From: a plasmid
Assembly: GCF_054482595.1 (NCBI RefSeq)
Contig: NZ_JBTHVH010000004.1
Length of the DNA: 64,000 bases
Strand: one strand, 5' to 3'
Shown: positions 42,001 through 51,000 of the stretch, piece after piece
How the letters are laid out: every line of letters begins with the position of its first letter
Position numbering within the stretch: the first letter of the stretch is position 1
Position numbers: made by a program

Positions 42001-45000
42001 TTGATGGTCTCCGGTTATATTGTTGTCGATACTATTATGATTGAAGGGAGAGAACATCCTCTTGACTACATGAGAGTGGTAGCAACAAGTAAGTTGGCTC
42101 ACATACCTAAACCTCTAAAAGGTTTTGGACAAAGTAGCTTTAATCAGATCTGACATTAAACCCACCCTAAAGGGGAGAAATCCCTTCATGGGATTTCTCC
42201 TTTTGGAGTCCCCATGAAACAAAAATTTAGGGCTACTGCAATAAGTAGTAATCAACTTAGTTTTTTTTCTATACTCGATATAGATGAAGATGAAATAACG
42301 CAAATAGTTGATTCACCCAAAGAGCATTTAAATGATGCTTACACGTCCGGATTAAACTTTAAATCAGAAGAAAGTAACATTTCTGAGATAAATTATGATT
42401 CTGAAAGGCGTGAAAATCACCTTTATGAAAAATCCAAATTACTTAAAAATCAGATTTTGCATACAATTAATTTTGCAGCAGAAACAGATTATCTATATAC
42501 GGTTGAAGAATATAACCCAGATTTGGGTGGTCTGGTAATAGAATGGACCCCTGAGGATGTGTATGTTGTTTTTCTATCCGCTATGGAAGAGTCTTTGGAA
42601 ATCATTAAAGAACTAGTGTTGAGGAGAAAGTTATTCTTCAAAGATGACAATGGTAATATCACAGTGAATCCACTTTTAGAAGCTGAAACACGGTGGTATA
42701 TGTCAAAATCATTTGAATACACTTGTTTATGTCATGGACTTGATGCATGTGAATTTAGAGCGGAATTAAAATCATGGCTCTATTATCATTCGCATCGTTC
42801 GATTAGTGAAAACACGAAATTAGCTGAATGCAGGAATGATGATGAAATCATTTTGCATGATTGCAATGACGATATGGGCTGGGACATCTTCTTTGATCAG
42901 GATTATTTAATGTCAGAAAAAAAACTGGCTGTTAAATGGACTGACAGGGAAATTATGGATGTTTACATAAAAGCTTTTAAATCCACATTAGAGTTGTTTG
43001 ACGAGCTTGTTTCATGTGATCTGTTAACTAAACGAAACGCTTTTGGCAAGTTAGAAATCAATCCAATATTCGAAAATCATTTTGAATGGATCATGTCTGA
43101 AGCTTTTGAAATAGTGGGAAATCATCTTGGTTATAATGTGCCTCAAATTAGGAAACTGATGGCAACTATTTGCCAAATGAATCTCAAATAAAATGCCACT
43201 GGCAAACATCTGCCAGAGGGCGGTGTTTGCATTTTACCGGAGTTAAAAATGTCTAATGCCGCTATGAAGTTAAATGAAACATCTTCTGATGCTTATGAAA
43301 AATTAGAAGCTCTTCTTTCCCCGGATGTTATAAAGTTAAAACATTATGTGGATAAAGGTGAGTATCTTTTAGTTCTAGCAAAGGACCTTTTTGGTATTCC
43401 AGAAATGGATCCAAAGATGGCTGTGCCTGTTTTCAAAACTAAAACCTCGTATCGAGCTCCGCTGAACAAAGACTACATACCAAATCCCCGAATACTTGAA
43501 CAAGTGGTTAAACTGCTTATCAGTCCGGATATAGATTTAAGTGTGTGTCTTAAAGGTGAGTCCGGTTCTGGCAAGACTGAAATGGTAATGTACATTAGCC
43601 ACATGATGAATTGGCCGCTGACAATTAAGCAGATCAACAGCAATATTCGAGTTGATGAGCTTGAAGGTGAGCGCAGTCTTAATGGTGGTAATACAGGTTT
43701 TGTACACAGCGATTTGGTAACGGGATTTCGTAATGGTCACCTCATTCTTCTGGATGAAGTGGACAAAATCGATCCTGATACGGCAGCAAAACTTCACATG
43801 CCCATTGAACGTAAGCCCTGGTCACTCAGTGCTAATGGTGGTGAGGTTATAACTGCTAATGGCTACACGCGATTTATTGGTACTGCAAACACAAACATGA
43901 GTGGAGGCGCTCGCCGGTTCGTTTCTTCTCAACGTCAAGATGCAGCTTTTATAAAGCGGTTCTTGATAGTTGAAATGGAGAAGCCCGACAAAGTTGCTTT
44001 AACCAATGTGCTTACTAAACGATATAGCTCTTTGCCTTTTCAGGTCATTGAGAAGTTCGTAAGAGTAGCGATTGCAGTAAATGACTCTGGTACAGAAGAC
44101 AGTGTGATGGATATTCGTCAATTAGTAGCTTGGGTTGGCACGTCGATGACGTTAAAAACCTTTAGTCTTCTTGACACTTTCAAAATAGCTTTTGCTTCTG
44201 CTTTACCTTTACATGTGGTCGATCTTGTTCTTCAAGCTATAGATCTTTCTCTTGGCGAAGACAAGGATAAATCGCTGGAGTATTTCACAGCAAAAAAGTC
44301 GAGTTAGATGGGATTTGTTATGAAACCTCTGATATTTGTATCTCAGAGTTATCCCATCTTGAATTTAGTGCGTTTTTAAGTACGGATGGTGCTGCTACCA
44401 TTGCTATAGCAAAAAACGGAACTAATTTTACTGGACTTATGCAACTGAATAACGACTATTCTTTATTGTTTTATCATGATGGTAAAATAAATATGGAAGG
44501 TCTGATTAAACAAATGGAATTAAAAGGTTATATGTATCAGGGAGCAATGGGCAATGATGATGTTGTTGCTGAGTTTCTCGGTATTCTTTTAATTTCACCA
44601 GAGAAGCTTTAATATCAACCCTATCGGGAAATCTTTCCCGTTGGGGAGGGTTTCCCCTTTTTTTTGGAGAAACCCATGACTTTAAATACTTCAATGCTTA
44701 ACAAAGTATCTGCAAAACAAATCTCTGAGAATTTTGCAAAATCATATCCAGATTTACTGGAAGGTGCAGTTATAACAAAAATTGAAATAAGTGGCTGTCA
44801 AGGATCGCGTCGAACCGATAAAATCGATTTGTCTTATGATGGAGATGATATTACGGATCAAAAAAGCGTATCTAAAAGCGAAGTACGCTGGATTGACATA
44901 AAAGCCCTTAGCTTCAAAAGTACGATTACCAGCAGAATATCAACTCTTTGCTCACGCTTGTGCATCCGCTATAGCAATATGTGGATTTTACCAGTATCCA

Positions 45001-48000: not shown

Positions 48001-51000
48001 AAAGTCGGTGCGATGCATAAAGTCCGTATTTTCGGACGTGTTGGTGAAGTTATAAGCAATGATAGCCCTCAGGAAAGAATCTTCCGCGAAGTCACTATAG
48101 CGGAGGGTAATAGCCAGCAGGCTGCGTTACTTGTAGATAACTACATACAGTGTCTTGAGAATAATGGCTTCACGACTGAAGCATAAATGTTGAGGGCCCC
48201 CGGGCCCTCTTTCTTAAATTCTGCGTTGTGGGTTTCTCCCTGTCTTCTGCACCGCAGAAGGCATTGAGAAACTCACAATGCCAGATAAGAGAGATCATCA
48301 TGACTTATGCATCCCCGGCTCTTCGTCGTAATCCACAGGAAGTATCTGAACACTTTATTAAACTCGTTCATGCTCGAATTGCTGAAGTGTCTGGCTGGAA
48401 GTATATATTCGAAAGAATACCTGCTTTCAAAGACGCTTGTGCAAAAGCCCCGAGCCAGGTTCCTTGCCCGTTTACTGGCGCAGGGAAATCGAAGTTTCGT
48501 TTCCGACAAAAAGACCTTTATACCGGATGTGCGATCCATAATGACTTTCCGGTAAATGAGTTTTGCGACGGAATTGATGTTCTGGCGAAATATTATGAAT
48601 TAAGTAAAACGCAGACTTGCAAAAAGATTCTCTCAGATTTTTTCGGGATGGATCTGCATGCTCCGTTAACTGACGCCGACATTGAAAATGAACGACGCTA
48701 TAAATCAGCAGTTCGTGCCACAGAAACTCTTGACCGAGAGGAAGTGGCAAAGCGAATGCGAAAACTTGATGTGATGTATCACTATACCGGTGAAATCAAG
48801 CCTAATACTCCTGTTGCTTTGTACCTCCGTAATCGTGGGATCTCCCGCTTACTGAGTCACTTACCAAAGGATTTAGGCTTTAATAACCGGATCTACTATT
48901 GGGATAAAGATAAGCAGAAATCGATTATCTATCCGGGAATGATTGCGATCTATCGTGACACCCGAGGTCGGCCTCTGACTATTCATAGAACATACGTAGA
49001 CAAAAATGGTGATAAGGCACCTGTAGAAAATCCAAAGCTGATGATGAAGCCTCCTGCCGATATGACAGGTGGCTCAATTCAGTTGTTTGACCCTCACTAT
49101 GATTCAGGTAGTTCGACCTGGACACTGGGAGTGGCTGAAGGGATCGAGAACGCGCTTTCTGTTGTAGAAGCGACTTCAACACCATGCTGGGCAGCCAGCT
49201 CCGCATGGTGCCTTGAAAACGTTACTGTTCCTGATTTTTTACTGCCTCCGCCGGATGTAAAATCTATAAACTTTTATATCTGGGCGGATAAGGATATTGC
49301 TAACTCACAAGGCACTCGTGCCGGTATTGAAGCTGCTCAGCGACTTCAAAGCCGCATGGTTGAGTTTTTGGCTAAACGATATCCCGCATCAAAGCTGACA
49401 ATTGAAGTCTTCGAACCAGCACAAGATATTCCTGATGGGAAAAAGGGTATCGACTGGAACGATGTTCTCCAGTTAACAGGGCAGGATGGATTCCCGATTC
49501 ACTGGGCTCCTGAATGTCTTAATCAGCTGTAACAACGATAACTCCCCCGCTTTTTGCGGGGGGGGTTATCTTATCAATATTATATTTTAAAATTGTATTG
49601 ATAAGATAACCGCTTTCCTTCGTGATAATTACCTGCCTTTAAGGTCTTTTCACGGCTGAGATGCTTGCTCAGTTAAATAAATGTGCGGTACTACTGGCTA
49701 TGGTCGGTTGTATGACATGGTTATTCCATAAACTATTAAAACCCATAACGGGAGTATTACCGTTATGGTGATGCTCGTCGTTTTACATCGGAGAGCATTT
49801 TAATGAATTTTCAAATTAACGAAGTTTTTAATAAATTTGCTGCTGTTATAAAATCGCGCATCGTCAATGAACCATCGTCATGCTATTTGCTGCATGATAA
49901 TGAGATAGATATAACGATTTTGAAACATAGCATATTAGAAAATGACAGAAACCTGTTGTACGTAGTTCGTCCTTCAGGAACGTGTTTGTTGCGTTGTGAC
50001 AAATATTTCTATCCGAAATATTATCTTCGTTGCCGTGGAGATTATAAGTCATTCATATATGTCCATCTTGATCTACATAGTGGTGAAGCTAAAGAAATCA
50101 CATGGGAGCAAGCAGACGATATGCTGTCTAGTCCAGGAAAACCCCCATTAAAAGGGAATCTTGGACGATTTGAGTATATAAAAGTTGTGGTTGAGGACCT
50201 TCGTATTCGAGGTTACGCTGATTATCTTCCTGCGTATAATCTTGATGACCTTCGCCGTTTTGCCTTACAGGACGACCGCCCATCCCTTGTCAGATACATT
50301 GACAATGTCATGGCAACGGTCTGATTGATTGCTAATTGATTTACATATTTTCCCTGATGGCCAACCTGCATCAGGGAGGCCTCAATAACGAATGGAGGCT
50401 GTATGAAGTTAGCTACGGACCTGGTAAAAGCTATTTTGATTAGAAATGGCGTTGAACCAGTAAATATAAGCGAATCATCTAAGTTATCTTTGAAACAACC
50501 ACTGACAGAACTTAAATTCAGTTTATATTTGCGAACTGAGCATTTATCTCACTTCCTACCCGGTTATGTTTATTCTATAAAAGAATGTCCACTGTCATAT
50601 GACATCGGGATCGAAATTCAGAAAATCTTCGAAAGTTTACATTTGTTAAACGAAGAATTTGAATCCCTCGGTTTTGTTTCTGTATGGATAGAAATGCATC
50701 AAAGCATTTTTGAACAAAGTCGGTTTAAGAAAAGTAACTTTACTTTTCGGGAGGAAGAGGTCGAGCTTGCTAAAGGGCTTGTTTGTTCTCACAATTCACA
50801 AATAAGTAATGCGGCTTATTTCTGGCTTCAGCACTTTGAGGAGTTTATGATTTATGTTCGTAATAAGCTTATCGACCTCTTTCGAGAGGCCTATGACCTG
50901 ATCCTTGGAATGCAGCAAGTATTTTTCATTCGGGAAAAGGAAGAGCTGTTGAAAACTATAAGTTATGGCGATGAGCTGTATGAGGTGAAATTCATGGCGG

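What the first reader, a model, noticed from the sequence alone, without database searches (positions are those of the whole stretch)
43249..49532. CobS-like AAA ATPase, unknown protein, HExxH+VWA protein and Toprim primase-like protein as one module
The co-directional genes encode:
- an AAA_5-type ATPase (GESGSGKT, LLDEVDK);
- a 375-aa unknown protein;
- a 670-aa protein combining an N-terminal HEAGH zinc-peptidase-like motif, a roughly 130-aa D/E/S/T-rich linker, and a C-terminal VWA domain with an intact MIDAS (DISASM, TPTGS, ITDG);
- a 73-aa protein;
- a Toprim protein whose zinc-ribbon-like segment has lost its cysteines (PCPFTGAGKSKFRF).

Upstream in the same block are an OB-fold-like small protein and a UvrD-like helicase.

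MoxR/CobS-type ATPase plus VWA pairs are established as chaperone-like or conflict-system pairs. Cobalt chelation makes no sense on this plasmid. A peptidase-VWA fusion coupled to a primase-like enzyme is not a described conjugation, replication or defence module as far as I know. It could be an establishment or anti-defence machine acting in the recipient, or an alternative replication-priming complex.
Basis: partly seen in the sequence, partly recalled or inferred. Interest (0 to 1): 0.65.

Follow-up and report, generated by a model that had tools for sequence, protein, structure and literature searches.

The report
Conjugative-plasmid CobS/CobT-like ATPase module with primase
This is the IncHI2 plasmid's copy of a gene set found across one large family of conjugative plasmids and ICEs: a ring ATPase, a partner protein with a protease-like head and an adhesion-like tail, an unknown third protein and a primase. 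Its relative in IncC plasmids helps incoming DNA escape host restriction enzymes, by a mechanism still unknown.

Summary

**Origin.** The window is IncHI2 plasmid backbone, just downstream of the Tra2 transfer genes.

**Conservation.** The ATPase–DUF3150–VWA trio was present in every sequence-checked MOBH/MPF_F element sampled: IncHI2, IncHI1B, IncC, IncT, and Shewanella, Aeromonas, Marinobacter, Pseudomonas and Klebsiella plasmids. SXT matches by annotation. A Toprim gene is adjacent in six sequence-checked plasmids and nearby in SXT.

**The "peptidase–VWA fusion".** It has the architecture now solved for cobaltochelatase CobT: M48-like domain, disordered linker, VWA. Here HExxH and a downstream Glu are kept; real CobT lacks HExxH. 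It is not a chelatase.

**Function.**
- The IncC homologue of the ATPase (Vcrx089), together with Vcrx090, protects incoming plasmids from type I restriction.
- IncHI2 has no Vcrx090 homologue.
- Deleting homologues in SXT and Rts1 lowers transfer 10-fold or less.
- Most likely role: a post-entry establishment or defence-evasion remodelling machine. The mechanism is open.

**Novelty.** This is a new member of a known, partly characterised kind.

**New details.**
- DUF3150 proteins end in a conserved aromatic C-terminal peptide.
- The primase's zinc ribbon is degenerate.

The parts
38667..40451 (+). TrhI, a UvrD/Rep-type SF1 helicase. Upstream context, in the same co-directional block.
   Evidence: Pfam UvrD-helicase 5e-33 and UvrD_C 4e-31. 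RefSeq names it 'IncHI-type conjugal transfer helicase TrhI'. A helicase lies upstream of the trio in IncHI1B and both Aeromonas plasmids as well.
40846..43191 (+). Three genes of unknown function (290, 125 and 325 aa) between the helicase and the ATPase.
   Evidence: No significant Pfam, NCBIfam, PHROG or PADLOC hit. Three unnamed genes of similar size occupy the same place in IncHI1B. The OB fold suggested for the 125-aa protein is not confirmed.
43249..44307 (+). CobS-like / MoxR-class AAA+ ATPase (AAA_5), with Walker A GESGSGKT and Walker B LLDEVDK. Homologue of IncC Vcrx089.
   Evidence: AAA_5 5e-28. CobS TIGR01650 1e-8, but only 34 bits against a 558-bit cut-off. phrog_249 3e-30. PDB sequence hits: midasin 7e-21, NorQ 2e-9, CobS 2e-8. 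27% identity, E 2e-26, to the IncC ATPase.
44439..44612 (+). 57-aa ORF in the variable slot between the ATPase and DUF3150 genes.
   Evidence: Annotated in RefSeq. No family hit. The same slot holds Vcrx090 in IncC, s088 in SXT and unrelated genes in Marinobacter and Shewanella. It is empty in IncHI1B and P. shirazica, and no gene is annotated in the roughly 250-bp gap in the two Aeromonas plasmids.
44626..44656 (+). Strong terminator-like hairpin followed by T8, between the ATPase/57-aa ORF and DUF3150.
   Evidence: 14-bp stem with 7 GC pairs, tail CTTTTTTTTG. Terminator-like sites are enriched in the region: 24 found against 8.7 ± 3.1 expected.
44676..45803 (+). DUF3150 protein: helical core (about residues 10-307) plus an acidic disordered tail ending ...ELKGW.
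45881..47893 (+). CobT-like protein: M48-like zincin domain (HEAGH at 70-74, E137), a roughly 140-aa acidic disordered linker, and a VWA domain with an intact MIDAS (D507, S509, S511, T580, D606).
47965..48186 (+). 73-aa ORF of unknown function.
   Evidence: Annotated in RefSeq. A small gene follows the VWA gene in IncHI1B, IncC, Marinobacter and P. shirazica. Homology among these small genes is not shown.
48300..49532 (+). Toprim (DnaG/T7-gp4-type) primase-like protein with a degenerate zinc ribbon.
   Evidence: DUF7146 2e-19 and Toprim_3 2e-12. phrog_510 DNA primase 2e-27. The catalytic E (AEGIE) and DxD (DKD) are conserved. The first zinc knuckle is CPFT and the second CAIH, whereas the IncC homologue has CPIH...CNTC.
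49542..49564 (+). GC-rich hairpin immediately after the Toprim stop codon; a possible end of the transcription unit.
   Evidence: 9-bp stem with 8 GC pairs. It is followed by a 270-nt gap to the next gene.

Best explanation
**What it is (shown).** This is the IncHI2 copy of a gene set ancestral to conjugative elements with MOBH relaxases and F-type mating-pair systems. That group includes IncHI, IncC/A, IncT, SXT/R391 and related megaplasmids. The core is a trio:
- a CobS-like AAA+ ATPase;
- a DUF3150 protein;
- a CobT-like protein, made of an M48-like zincin domain, a disordered acidic linker and a VWA/MIDAS domain.

A Toprim primase-like gene usually sits next to the trio.

**How it is built (inferred from the solved CobS-CobT complex).**
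- The ATPase forms a ring.
- The CobT-like protein docks on the ring through its N-domain and its VWA domain.
- DUF3150 is the third subunit, acting as adaptor or client. Its long acidic tail ends in a conserved aromatic residue, which looks like a docking peptide.

**What it does (inferred from homologues).** It is not a chelatase. It most likely acts after DNA entry, in the new host, as an ATP-driven protein-remodelling device that helps the plasmid establish itself and evade host nucleases. The IncC homologue of the ATPase does this against type I restriction. The retained HExxH...E site suggests it may also cut its target. The primase would prime complementary-strand synthesis in the same early programme. 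The trio is dispensable for mating itself.
For: **Identity and origin**
- 1,122 plasmids match at 99% identity or more.
- The matched plasmid is typed IncHI2A, MOBH, MPF_F.

**Trio conserved in distinct lineages**
- IncHI1B.
- Two Aeromonas plasmids.
- IncC.
- Shewanella.
- P. shirazica.
- Klebsiella sp..
- Marinobacter.
- Rts1/IncT.
- SXT, by annotation only.

**Toprim linkage**
- A Toprim gene is adjacent in IncHI2, IncHI1B, Shewanella, Marinobacter and both Aeromonas plasmids. It lies downstream in the first four and upstream in Aeromonas.
- In SXT a 'primase?' gene lies a few genes downstream.
- Phage ICP2 has a CobT-like gene (HECYH) and a CobS-like gene a few genes from its primase and helicase.

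**Architecture**
- The N-domain model has pLDDT 93. Its topology is one helix, a three-stranded sheet and eight helices, as described for CobT_N.
- CobT_N 'resembled peptidase M48C' and binds the CobS small domain.
- HExxH and the Glu are invariant among homologues.

**Function of homologues**
- Deleting vcrx089-090 lowers IncC entry into V. cholerae 25-fold. The defect is rescued from the recipient and depends on HsdR.
- The IncC transcript runs into vcrx094, which I take to be the DUF3150 gene.
- The same deletion raises restriction by EcoKI and EcoBI 400-900-fold.
- The SXT operon is directly activated by SetCD.
- The window ATPase matches Vcrx089 at E 2e-26, the VWA protein matches the IncC one at 1e-23, and the DUF3150 proteins match at 2e-4.
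Against: - No experiment exists on the IncHI2 genes.
- IncHI2 has no Vcrx090 homologue, and the published phenotype is for the double deletion.
- In the IncC TnSeq screen, the genes I take to be DUF3150 and VWA were not among the depleted genes.
- In Rts1 the VWA gene is split by IS2, yet the plasmid conjugates. The whole-trio deletion costs only about 5-fold.
- Physical interaction among the three proteins rests on analogy only.
- Similarity of the N-domain to real CobT_N is not detectable by sequence.
- Terminator-like hairpins between the genes mean co-transcription is not shown here.
Confidence: 0.5

Rival explanations
1. A replication or priming accessory. The AAA+/VWA pair would load or remodel the Toprim primase, and perhaps the TrhI helicase and SSB, on the incoming single strand or at a plasmid origin, as loaders do for other replisome parts.
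For: The trio lies repeatedly next to a primase, in different gene orders. It also lies next to ssb-recT-exo. Phage ICP2 places the pair a few genes from its primase and helicase. The primase's degenerate zinc ribbon could mean it needs a partner for template recognition. There are weak clamp-loader/RFC similarities.
Against: CobS/MoxR-class AAA_5 ATPases are known as protein remodellers, not DNA loaders, and no DNA-binding domain was detected. In IncC and P. shirazica the trio and the Toprim gene are far apart. The only strong phenotype known for a homologue is anti-restriction. The RFC-type hits are generic P-loop similarity (E 3e-4 to 3e-5).
Confidence: 0.15
2. An assembly chaperone and processing protease for the conjugation apparatus or its secreted substrates. 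This would parallel the proposed role of MoxR-vWA-peptidase pairs in phage virion assembly.
For: The genes lie among transfer genes: after trhN/traN here and in IncC, and between trhU and traF/traH in the Klebsiella sp. plasmid. The SXT operon belongs to the SetCD transfer regulon. Deletions lower transfer modestly. A virion-assembly role was proposed for the jumbo-phage pair.
Against: The transfer defects are small (10-fold or less), whereas true Mpf genes abolish transfer. IncC lacking vcrx089-090 transfers at wild-type rate to a non-restricting recipient, and the defect is complemented from the recipient, not the donor.
Confidence: 0.12
3. A defence system carried by the plasmid against phages or rival plasmids: a MoxR-vWA conflict system with the zincin as effector.
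For: MoxR-vWA systems with peptidase effectors have been proposed as conflict systems (eLife 2020, PMC7159879, listed but not read). The plasmid carries other defence-like cargo nearby, the Ter/vWA cluster.
Against: There are no PADLOC matches beyond generic P-loop or helicase similarity. The trio is backbone, not variable cargo, and is fixed beside transfer genes across a whole plasmid family. The homologue's phenotype is counter-defence.
Confidence: 0.05
4. A real cobaltochelatase (CobS/CobT) supplying cobalamin synthesis.
For: There is weak similarity to CobS (1e-8) and to a chelatase VWA subunit (2e-8). The domain order matches CobT.
Against: The scores are about 6% of the equivalog cut-offs (34 against 558 bits, 33 against 779 bits). 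No CobN or other cob gene is annotated in the 46 kb around the module. The N-domain keeps an HExxH that real CobT lacks.
Confidence: 0.01

Closest known systems
IncC 'hde' (host defence evasion) operon: vcrx089-vcrx090-ssb-bet-exo, then the DUF3150 and VWA genes (Roy et al. 2020, PMC7498323; Dimitriu et al. 2024, PMC11602122)
   Same: Homologous ATPase (E 2e-26), DUF3150 protein (E 2e-4) and VWA protein with HExxH (E 1e-23). Same position downstream of traN/trhN on a MOBH/MPF_F element.
   Different: IncHI2 has no Vcrx090, SSB, Bet or Exo homologue here. Its trio is contiguous and a Toprim gene is adjacent. In IncC the Toprim gene lies elsewhere and carries a long insertion. Anti-restriction has been shown only for vcrx089-090.
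SXT/R391 s067 (CobS-like) - s088 - s068 - s069 - s070 (CobT-like) - radC - s092 - s072 ('primase?')
   Same: By the SXT annotation, the same ATPase, CobT-like and primase genes occur in one SetCD-activated operon. The annotators noted homologues on S. typhi (IncHI1) plasmids.
   Different: SXT also has ssb-bet-exo upstream and RadC inside the block. I did not compare the sequences directly. Single deletions reduce transfer 10-fold or less.
Aerobic cobaltochelatase CobS-CobT (structures 9ujv and 9uka; bioRxiv 10.64898/2026.07.21.739949)
   Same: An AAA+ ATPase of the same class. The partner has an M48C-like N-domain, a disordered linker of about 90 aa and a VWA domain with a MIDAS. The topology of the N-domain model matches the description of CobT_N.
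   Different: There is no CobN. Family scores are far below cut-off. The plasmid and phage proteins keep HExxH, whereas the solved CobT sequence has no HExxH; MAFFT places 'AHDIAV' opposite the motif. A DUF3150 protein stands where a client would be.
MoxR ATPase plus vWA protein fused to an N-terminal metallopeptidase, in jumbo phages (Iyer et al. 2021, PMC7824862); CobT/CobS-like pair of Vibrio phage ICP2
   Same: The same two-protein pairing with a peptidase-like head on the VWA protein. ICP2 gp41 has HECYH, and gp42 is CobS-like. Both lie near the phage primase.
   Different: No DUF3150 homologue was found in 50,697 phage records. The proposed phage role, virion assembly, cannot apply to a plasmid.
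CbbQ-CbbO, NorQ-NorD, RavA-ViaA (MoxR-class AAA+ with a VWA adaptor)
   Same: An AAA_5 ring ATPase next to a MIDAS-bearing VWA adaptor that targets a client protein.
   Different: The N-terminal domains of the adaptor differ and the clients are metabolic enzymes. None has a DUF3150 partner or sits on a conjugative element.

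Membership tests
Cobaltochelatase CobNST | CobS equivalog score at or above the curated cut-off (TIGR01650, 558.55 bits) | tested here: not met
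   34.4 bits, E 1.3e-8.
Cobaltochelatase CobNST | A CobN large subunit or other cob genes present | tested here: not met
   None among the 44 features annotated over 46 kb around the module.
Cobaltochelatase CobNST | CobT architecture: M48C-like N-domain, disordered linker, VWA with MIDAS | tested here: met
vcrx089_090 anti-restriction system (AntiDefenseFinder two-gene system) | Vcrx089-like AAA_5 ATPase | tested here: met
   27% identity over 275 aa, E 2e-26. CbbQ_C was not detected in the window protein at E ≤ 0.1.
vcrx089_090 anti-restriction system (AntiDefenseFinder two-gene system) | Adjacent Vcrx090 homologue | tested here: not met
   blastp of 13 window proteins against Vcrx090, and tblastn of Vcrx090 against the whole window, gave nothing better than E 0.03-0.5.
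vcrx089_090 anti-restriction system (AntiDefenseFinder two-gene system) | Protects incoming DNA from type I restriction | not testable with these tools
   Shown only for IncC plasmids.
MoxR-class AAA+ / VWA pair | AAA_5 domain with intact Walker A and Walker B | tested here: met
   AAA_5 5e-28. GESGSGKT and LLDEVDK present.
MoxR-class AAA+ / VWA pair | Neighbouring VWA protein with a complete MIDAS (DxSxS...T...D) | tested here: met
   D507, S509, S511, T580 and D606 are invariant in 18 homologues.
Zincin (gluzincin, M48/M56-like) metallopeptidase | HExxH on the active-site helix, plus a Glu on a later helix | tested here: met
   H70, E71, H74 and E137 are invariant. HExxH is present in all 7 distant plasmid homologues and in the phage protein. 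The motif lies in helix 58-77 and the Glu in helix 111-143 of the model. The role of E137 as third ligand is inferred.
Zincin (gluzincin, M48/M56-like) metallopeptidase | Zincin fold | tested here: met
Zincin (gluzincin, M48/M56-like) metallopeptidase | Zinc binding and peptidase activity | not testable with these tools
   Needs biochemistry.
DnaG / T7-gp4-type Toprim primase | Toprim domain with catalytic Glu and DxD | tested here: met
   Toprim_3 2e-12. AEGIE and DKD are conserved in six homologues.
DnaG / T7-gp4-type Toprim primase | Four-ligand zinc ribbon | tested here: not met
   The window protein has CPFT...CAIH, at most three candidate ligands. The IncC homologue has CPIH...CNTC. Other relatives keep even fewer ligands.
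DnaG / T7-gp4-type Toprim primase | Primer synthesis | not testable with these tools
   No solved relative is detectable by sequence.
DUF3150 (PF11348) | Score above the Pfam gathering threshold | tested here: met
   83.3 bits against a 24.9-bit cut-off.
Known anti-phage defence systems (PADLOC) | Match to a system-specific model, with partners | tested here: not met
   Only generic GajB-type hits for the UvrD helicase and E 2e-4 P-loop hits for the ATPase.

The most novel reading that the evidence does not exclude
The ATPase, the CobT-like zincin-VWA protein and DUF3150 form a protease-armed, ATP-driven machine. It would recognise host restriction or other nuclease complexes through the MIDAS site, and strip or cleave them from the incoming plasmid. 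DUF3150 and the variable proteins in the 'Vcrx090 slot' would be interchangeable adaptors that plug in through their aromatic C-terminal peptides. The zinc-ribbon-less primase would be recruited by the same assembly. That would be a new counter-defence mechanism shared by IncHI, IncC, IncT and SXT/R391 elements and some phages.
Probability: 0.2. Interest if true: 0.8.

Novelty: new member of a known kind. Interest (0 to 1): 0.45.

Why it matters
**Clinical relevance.** IncHI2, IncHI1, IncC and SXT/R391 elements are major carriers of multidrug resistance, including mcr-1 and NDM.

**Where the open question is.**
- One component's homologue gives a 400-900-fold protection from type I restriction in IncC, by an unknown mechanism.
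- The two other conserved proteins of the trio have no assigned role.
- Showing that the trio is one machine, with a live protease site and a docking tail, would define a new way for mobile DNA to disarm host defences.
- It would also correct the long-standing labelling of phage and plasmid 'cobS/cobT' as vitamin B12 genes.

**For the scan.** The finding is real, but it belongs to a family that is already annotated and partly studied.

Tried and rejected
- **DUF3150 alignment as a locus query.** The diverse alignment was too divergent to use.
- **Sequence link from the N-domain to real CobT_N.** hhalign found nothing. hmmsearch gave E 0.04 against a single sequence. The PDB profile search hit only the VWA domain and linker. 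The link therefore rests on fold description and topology only.
- **Search for a Vcrx090 homologue in the window.** Negative.
- **WGR-domain idea.** It was prompted by a KGY motif in the proteins occupying the ATPase-DUF3150 slot. Pfam gave no support.
- **OB-fold or SSB nature of the 125-aa protein.** No support.
- **Homology between the reverse-strand lipoprotein and the IncC gene in the same position.** None beyond the signal peptide.
- **Literature on IncHI-specific knock-outs or expression of these genes.** Nothing found.
- **Supplement of the IncC TnSeq paper.** Not held.
- **Rfam.** No RNA family in 36-54 kb.
- **Chelatase and defence-system readings.** Rejected for the reasons given under rival explanations.

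Full report
**1. What is in the sequence**

The five co-directional ORFs exist as described and match the RefSeq gene calls of identical plasmids:
- AAA_5 ATPase, 43249-44307.
- DUF3150 protein, 44676-45803.
- VWA protein, 45881-47893.
- A 73-aa ORF, 47965-48186.
- Toprim protein, 48300-49532 (an alternative GTG start lies at 48228).

RefSeq also calls a 57-aa ORF at 44439-44612.

The linker of the VWA protein is 60% D/E/S/T, against 29% elsewhere in the protein.

Family assignments are strong:
- AAA_5, 5e-28.
- DUF3150, 2e-23.
- VWA, 2e-7.
- DUF7146 plus Toprim_3, 2e-19 and 2e-12.
- Phage CobS family phrog_249, 3e-30, and primase family phrog_510, 2e-27.

The upstream UvrD-like helicase is TrhI. 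The 'OB-fold-like' 125-aa protein could not be confirmed.

**2. Where it comes from**

The 6.3-kb segment is at least 99% identical in 1,122 plasmids of Escherichia, Salmonella, Enterobacter, Klebsiella and others. A representative is typed IncHI2A, MOBH relaxase, F-type mating-pair system. In it the segment lies directly downstream of the Tra2 genes trhF, trhU, trhN and trhI.

**3. Is the neighbourhood conserved?**

Yes.

| Element | Gene order |
|---|---|
| IncHI1B Klebsiella plasmids | helicase, three unnamed genes, ATPase, DUF3150, VWA, small gene, Toprim; proteins 38-52% identical |
| Shewanella pXY8M34-1 | ATPase, one gene, DUF3150, VWA, Toprim |
| Marinobacter pHL2708Z5 | ssb, recT, exo, ATPase, one gene, DUF3150, VWA, two small genes, Toprim |
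| Two Aeromonas plasmids | helicase, Toprim, ATPase, DUF3150, VWA |
| P. shirazica plasmid | ATPase, DUF3150, VWA; traN about 2.4 kb downstream; Toprim about 40 kb away |
| Klebsiella sp. plasmid | trio between trhU and traF/traH |
| IncC | traN ... ATPase, Vcrx090, ssb, bet, exo, DUF3150, VWA |
| Rts1 (IncT) | ssb, recT, exo, one gene, MoxR ATPase, DUF3150, VWA gene split by IS2 |
| SXT (Burrus-lab annotation) | s067 'CobS', s088, s068, s069, s070 'cobT', radC, s092, s072 'primase?' |

The SXT annotators remarked that the ATPase, s068 and s070 resemble S. typhi plasmid genes.

The trio is therefore a backbone feature of MOBH/MPF_F elements. The Toprim gene is a frequent neighbour but not an obligatory one, and it appears on either side of the trio.

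The slot between the ATPase and DUF3150 genes is variable. It holds Vcrx090, s088, unrelated genes, the 57-aa ORF here, or nothing.

DUF3150 is a small family. A full profile search of 1.84 billion representative proteins gave 321 hits at E ≤ 1e-3 and 65 at E ≤ 1e-10. It was not found in 50,697 phage records.

**4. The 'peptidase-VWA fusion'**

AlphaFold2 models the first 265 residues with mean pLDDT 93. The model has one helix, a three-stranded sheet and then eight helices.

H70, E71, H74, D132, D133 and E137 are invariant in 18 homologues. HExxH occurs in all seven distant plasmid homologues compared.

A 2026 preprint on the real cobaltochelatase describes CobT in the same terms:
- a disordered linker of about 90 residues;
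- a VWA domain with a MIDAS;
- the N-domain bound to the small domain of CobS.

So the architecture is that of CobT, not a new fusion. The difference lies in the active site. The solved CobT N-domain sequence (recovered) contains no HExxH. MAFFT places 'AHDIAV' opposite the motif. That alignment has no statistical support.

Phage ICP2's 'CobT' also keeps HECYH. A MoxR ATPase paired with a vWA protein bearing an N-terminal metallopeptidase was already noted in jumbo phages.

Chelatase function is excluded for practical purposes. Scores are 34 bits against a 558-bit cut-off and 33 against 779. No CobN is annotated nearby.

**5. DUF3150**

Of 47 family members examined, 46 end in W or F, commonly as [FW]-G-x-[FW] after an acidic or polar disordered stretch. 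The window protein ends ELKGW.

Similar endings occur outside that set:
- The IncC DUF3150 protein ends DGDYFF.
- Vcrx090 ends EDHFF.
- The Marinobacter slot protein ends KAAFF.

This looks like a C-terminal docking peptide. Its receptor is unknown.

**6. The Toprim protein**

The catalytic Glu and DxD are conserved. The zinc ribbon is degenerate. All MOBH relatives have CPxxG in the first knuckle. The IncC protein keeps C, H, C, C. IncHI2 has at most C, C, H, and the other relatives keep fewer.

Membership of the classical primase family is therefore incomplete, and primase activity remains an inference.

**7. What homologues do**

- **IncC pVCR94.**
  - The ATPase Vcrx089 and its neighbour Vcrx090 lie in the 'host defence evasion' operon.
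  - Their joint deletion lowers transfer into V. cholerae 25-fold.
  - The defect disappears in an hsdR mutant.
  - It is complemented from the recipient, not the donor.
  - The transcript reaches the 3' end of vcrx094. I infer this is the DUF3150 gene because it is the next gene after exo.
- **IncC pKAZ3.** The same deletion raises restriction by EcoKI and EcoBI 400-900-fold.
- **AntiDefenseFinder.** It lists vcrx089_090 as a two-gene system.
- **SXT.** Single deletions of s067, s068 and s070 reduce transfer 10-fold or less. The operon is directly activated by SetCD.
- **Rts1.** Deleting orf227-234, which covers the whole trio, leaves 0.21 of wild-type transfer.
- **Follow-up work.** I found no mechanistic follow-up in the held literature.

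**8. Interpretation**

What is shown:
- The trio is conserved.
- The architecture is CobS/CobT-like.
- The zincin motif and the MIDAS are intact.
- The primase ribbon is degenerate.
- The module sits beside transfer genes.

What is inferred:
- **Assembly:** the three proteins form one complex, by analogy with CobS-CobT.
- **Role:** the machine acts in the recipient to aid establishment and defence evasion, by homology to Vcrx089. This is weakened by the absence of Vcrx090.
- **Mechanism:** the zincin site is catalytic, and the DUF3150 tail is a docking peptide.

The rivals are weaker but not excluded. They are a priming accessory, a T4SS assembly chaperone and a defence system.

Terminator-like hairpins are enriched in the region: 24 found against 8.7 ± 3.1 expected. 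A strong one lies between the ATPase and DUF3150 genes. The genes may therefore be expressed at different levels, which would suit a hexamer-plus-adaptor stoichiometry, or from separate transcripts.

**9. Verdict**

It is, however, a member of an already annotated and partly characterised family, so novelty is limited.

The open and interesting part is mechanistic:
- how an AAA+/VWA/zincin assembly could protect incoming DNA;
- what DUF3150 and the ribbon-less primase contribute.

Noticed in passing
window 45600-45803 (C-terminus of the DUF3150 protein); alignment A4: Of 47 diverse DUF3150 proteins, 46 end in W or F, commonly as [FW]-G-x-[FW], after a disordered acidic or polar tail. IncC Vcrx090 ends in FF, and so does the Marinobacter protein in the same slot. 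This is a candidate C-terminal docking peptide with an unknown receptor.
   Followed up: partly
window 38000-50500, e.g. 44626-44656, 47907-47927, 48192-48209, 49542-49564: Terminator-like hairpins are about three times more frequent than in shuffled sequence (24 against 8.7 ± 3.1). They sit in several of the gaps between genes of the block. They could be attenuators, mRNA stabilisers or repeat elements.
   Followed up: no
window 44439-44612: A 57-aa ORF fills the variable slot between the ATPase and DUF3150 genes. It shares a short '...K-x-x-L-K-G-Y' stretch with the Shewanella and Marinobacter slot proteins, reminiscent of WGR domains. Pfam gave no support.
   Followed up: partly
L023 (Rts1) 19030-22192: In the prototype IncT plasmid Rts1 the CobT-like gene appears to be split by an IS2 insertion. 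A 223-aa fragment is followed by IS2 and then a 399-aa VWA fragment. The plasmid still conjugates.
   Followed up: no
L022 (Vibrio phage ICP2) 3969-10618: The phage 'CobT' (gp41, with HECYH at residue 64) and 'CobS' (gp42) lie a few genes upstream of the phage primase and replicative helicase. The ATPase/zincin-VWA pair and its proximity to a primase therefore also occur in a phage.
   Followed up: partly
window 37615-38487, minus strand: A 290-aa lipoprotein (lipobox LSGCAG) is encoded on the opposite strand right after trhN. IncC also has a similar-sized reverse-strand lipoprotein immediately after traN, and Rts1 has a similar-sized reverse-strand gene there. SXT s063 and Rts1 orf218, whose deletions cut transfer 100-fold and about 70-fold, are reverse-strand genes at the head of this block (after traU in Rts1). 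No sequence similarity beyond the signal peptide was found.
   Followed up: partly
window 50403-55409: Five consecutive co-directional genes of 292-318 aa with unknown function follow the module. The last two are clear paralogues (27% identity, E 4e-37). The others show no BLAST similarity to them.
   Followed up: partly
L021 (IncC pEc158) 4951-6678: The IncC Toprim homologue is 575 aa. It carries an insertion of roughly 200 aa between the zinc-ribbon region and the catalytic core, and it keeps a complete C,H,C,C ribbon, unlike the IncHI, Shewanella, Aeromonas and Marinobacter proteins.
   Followed up: no
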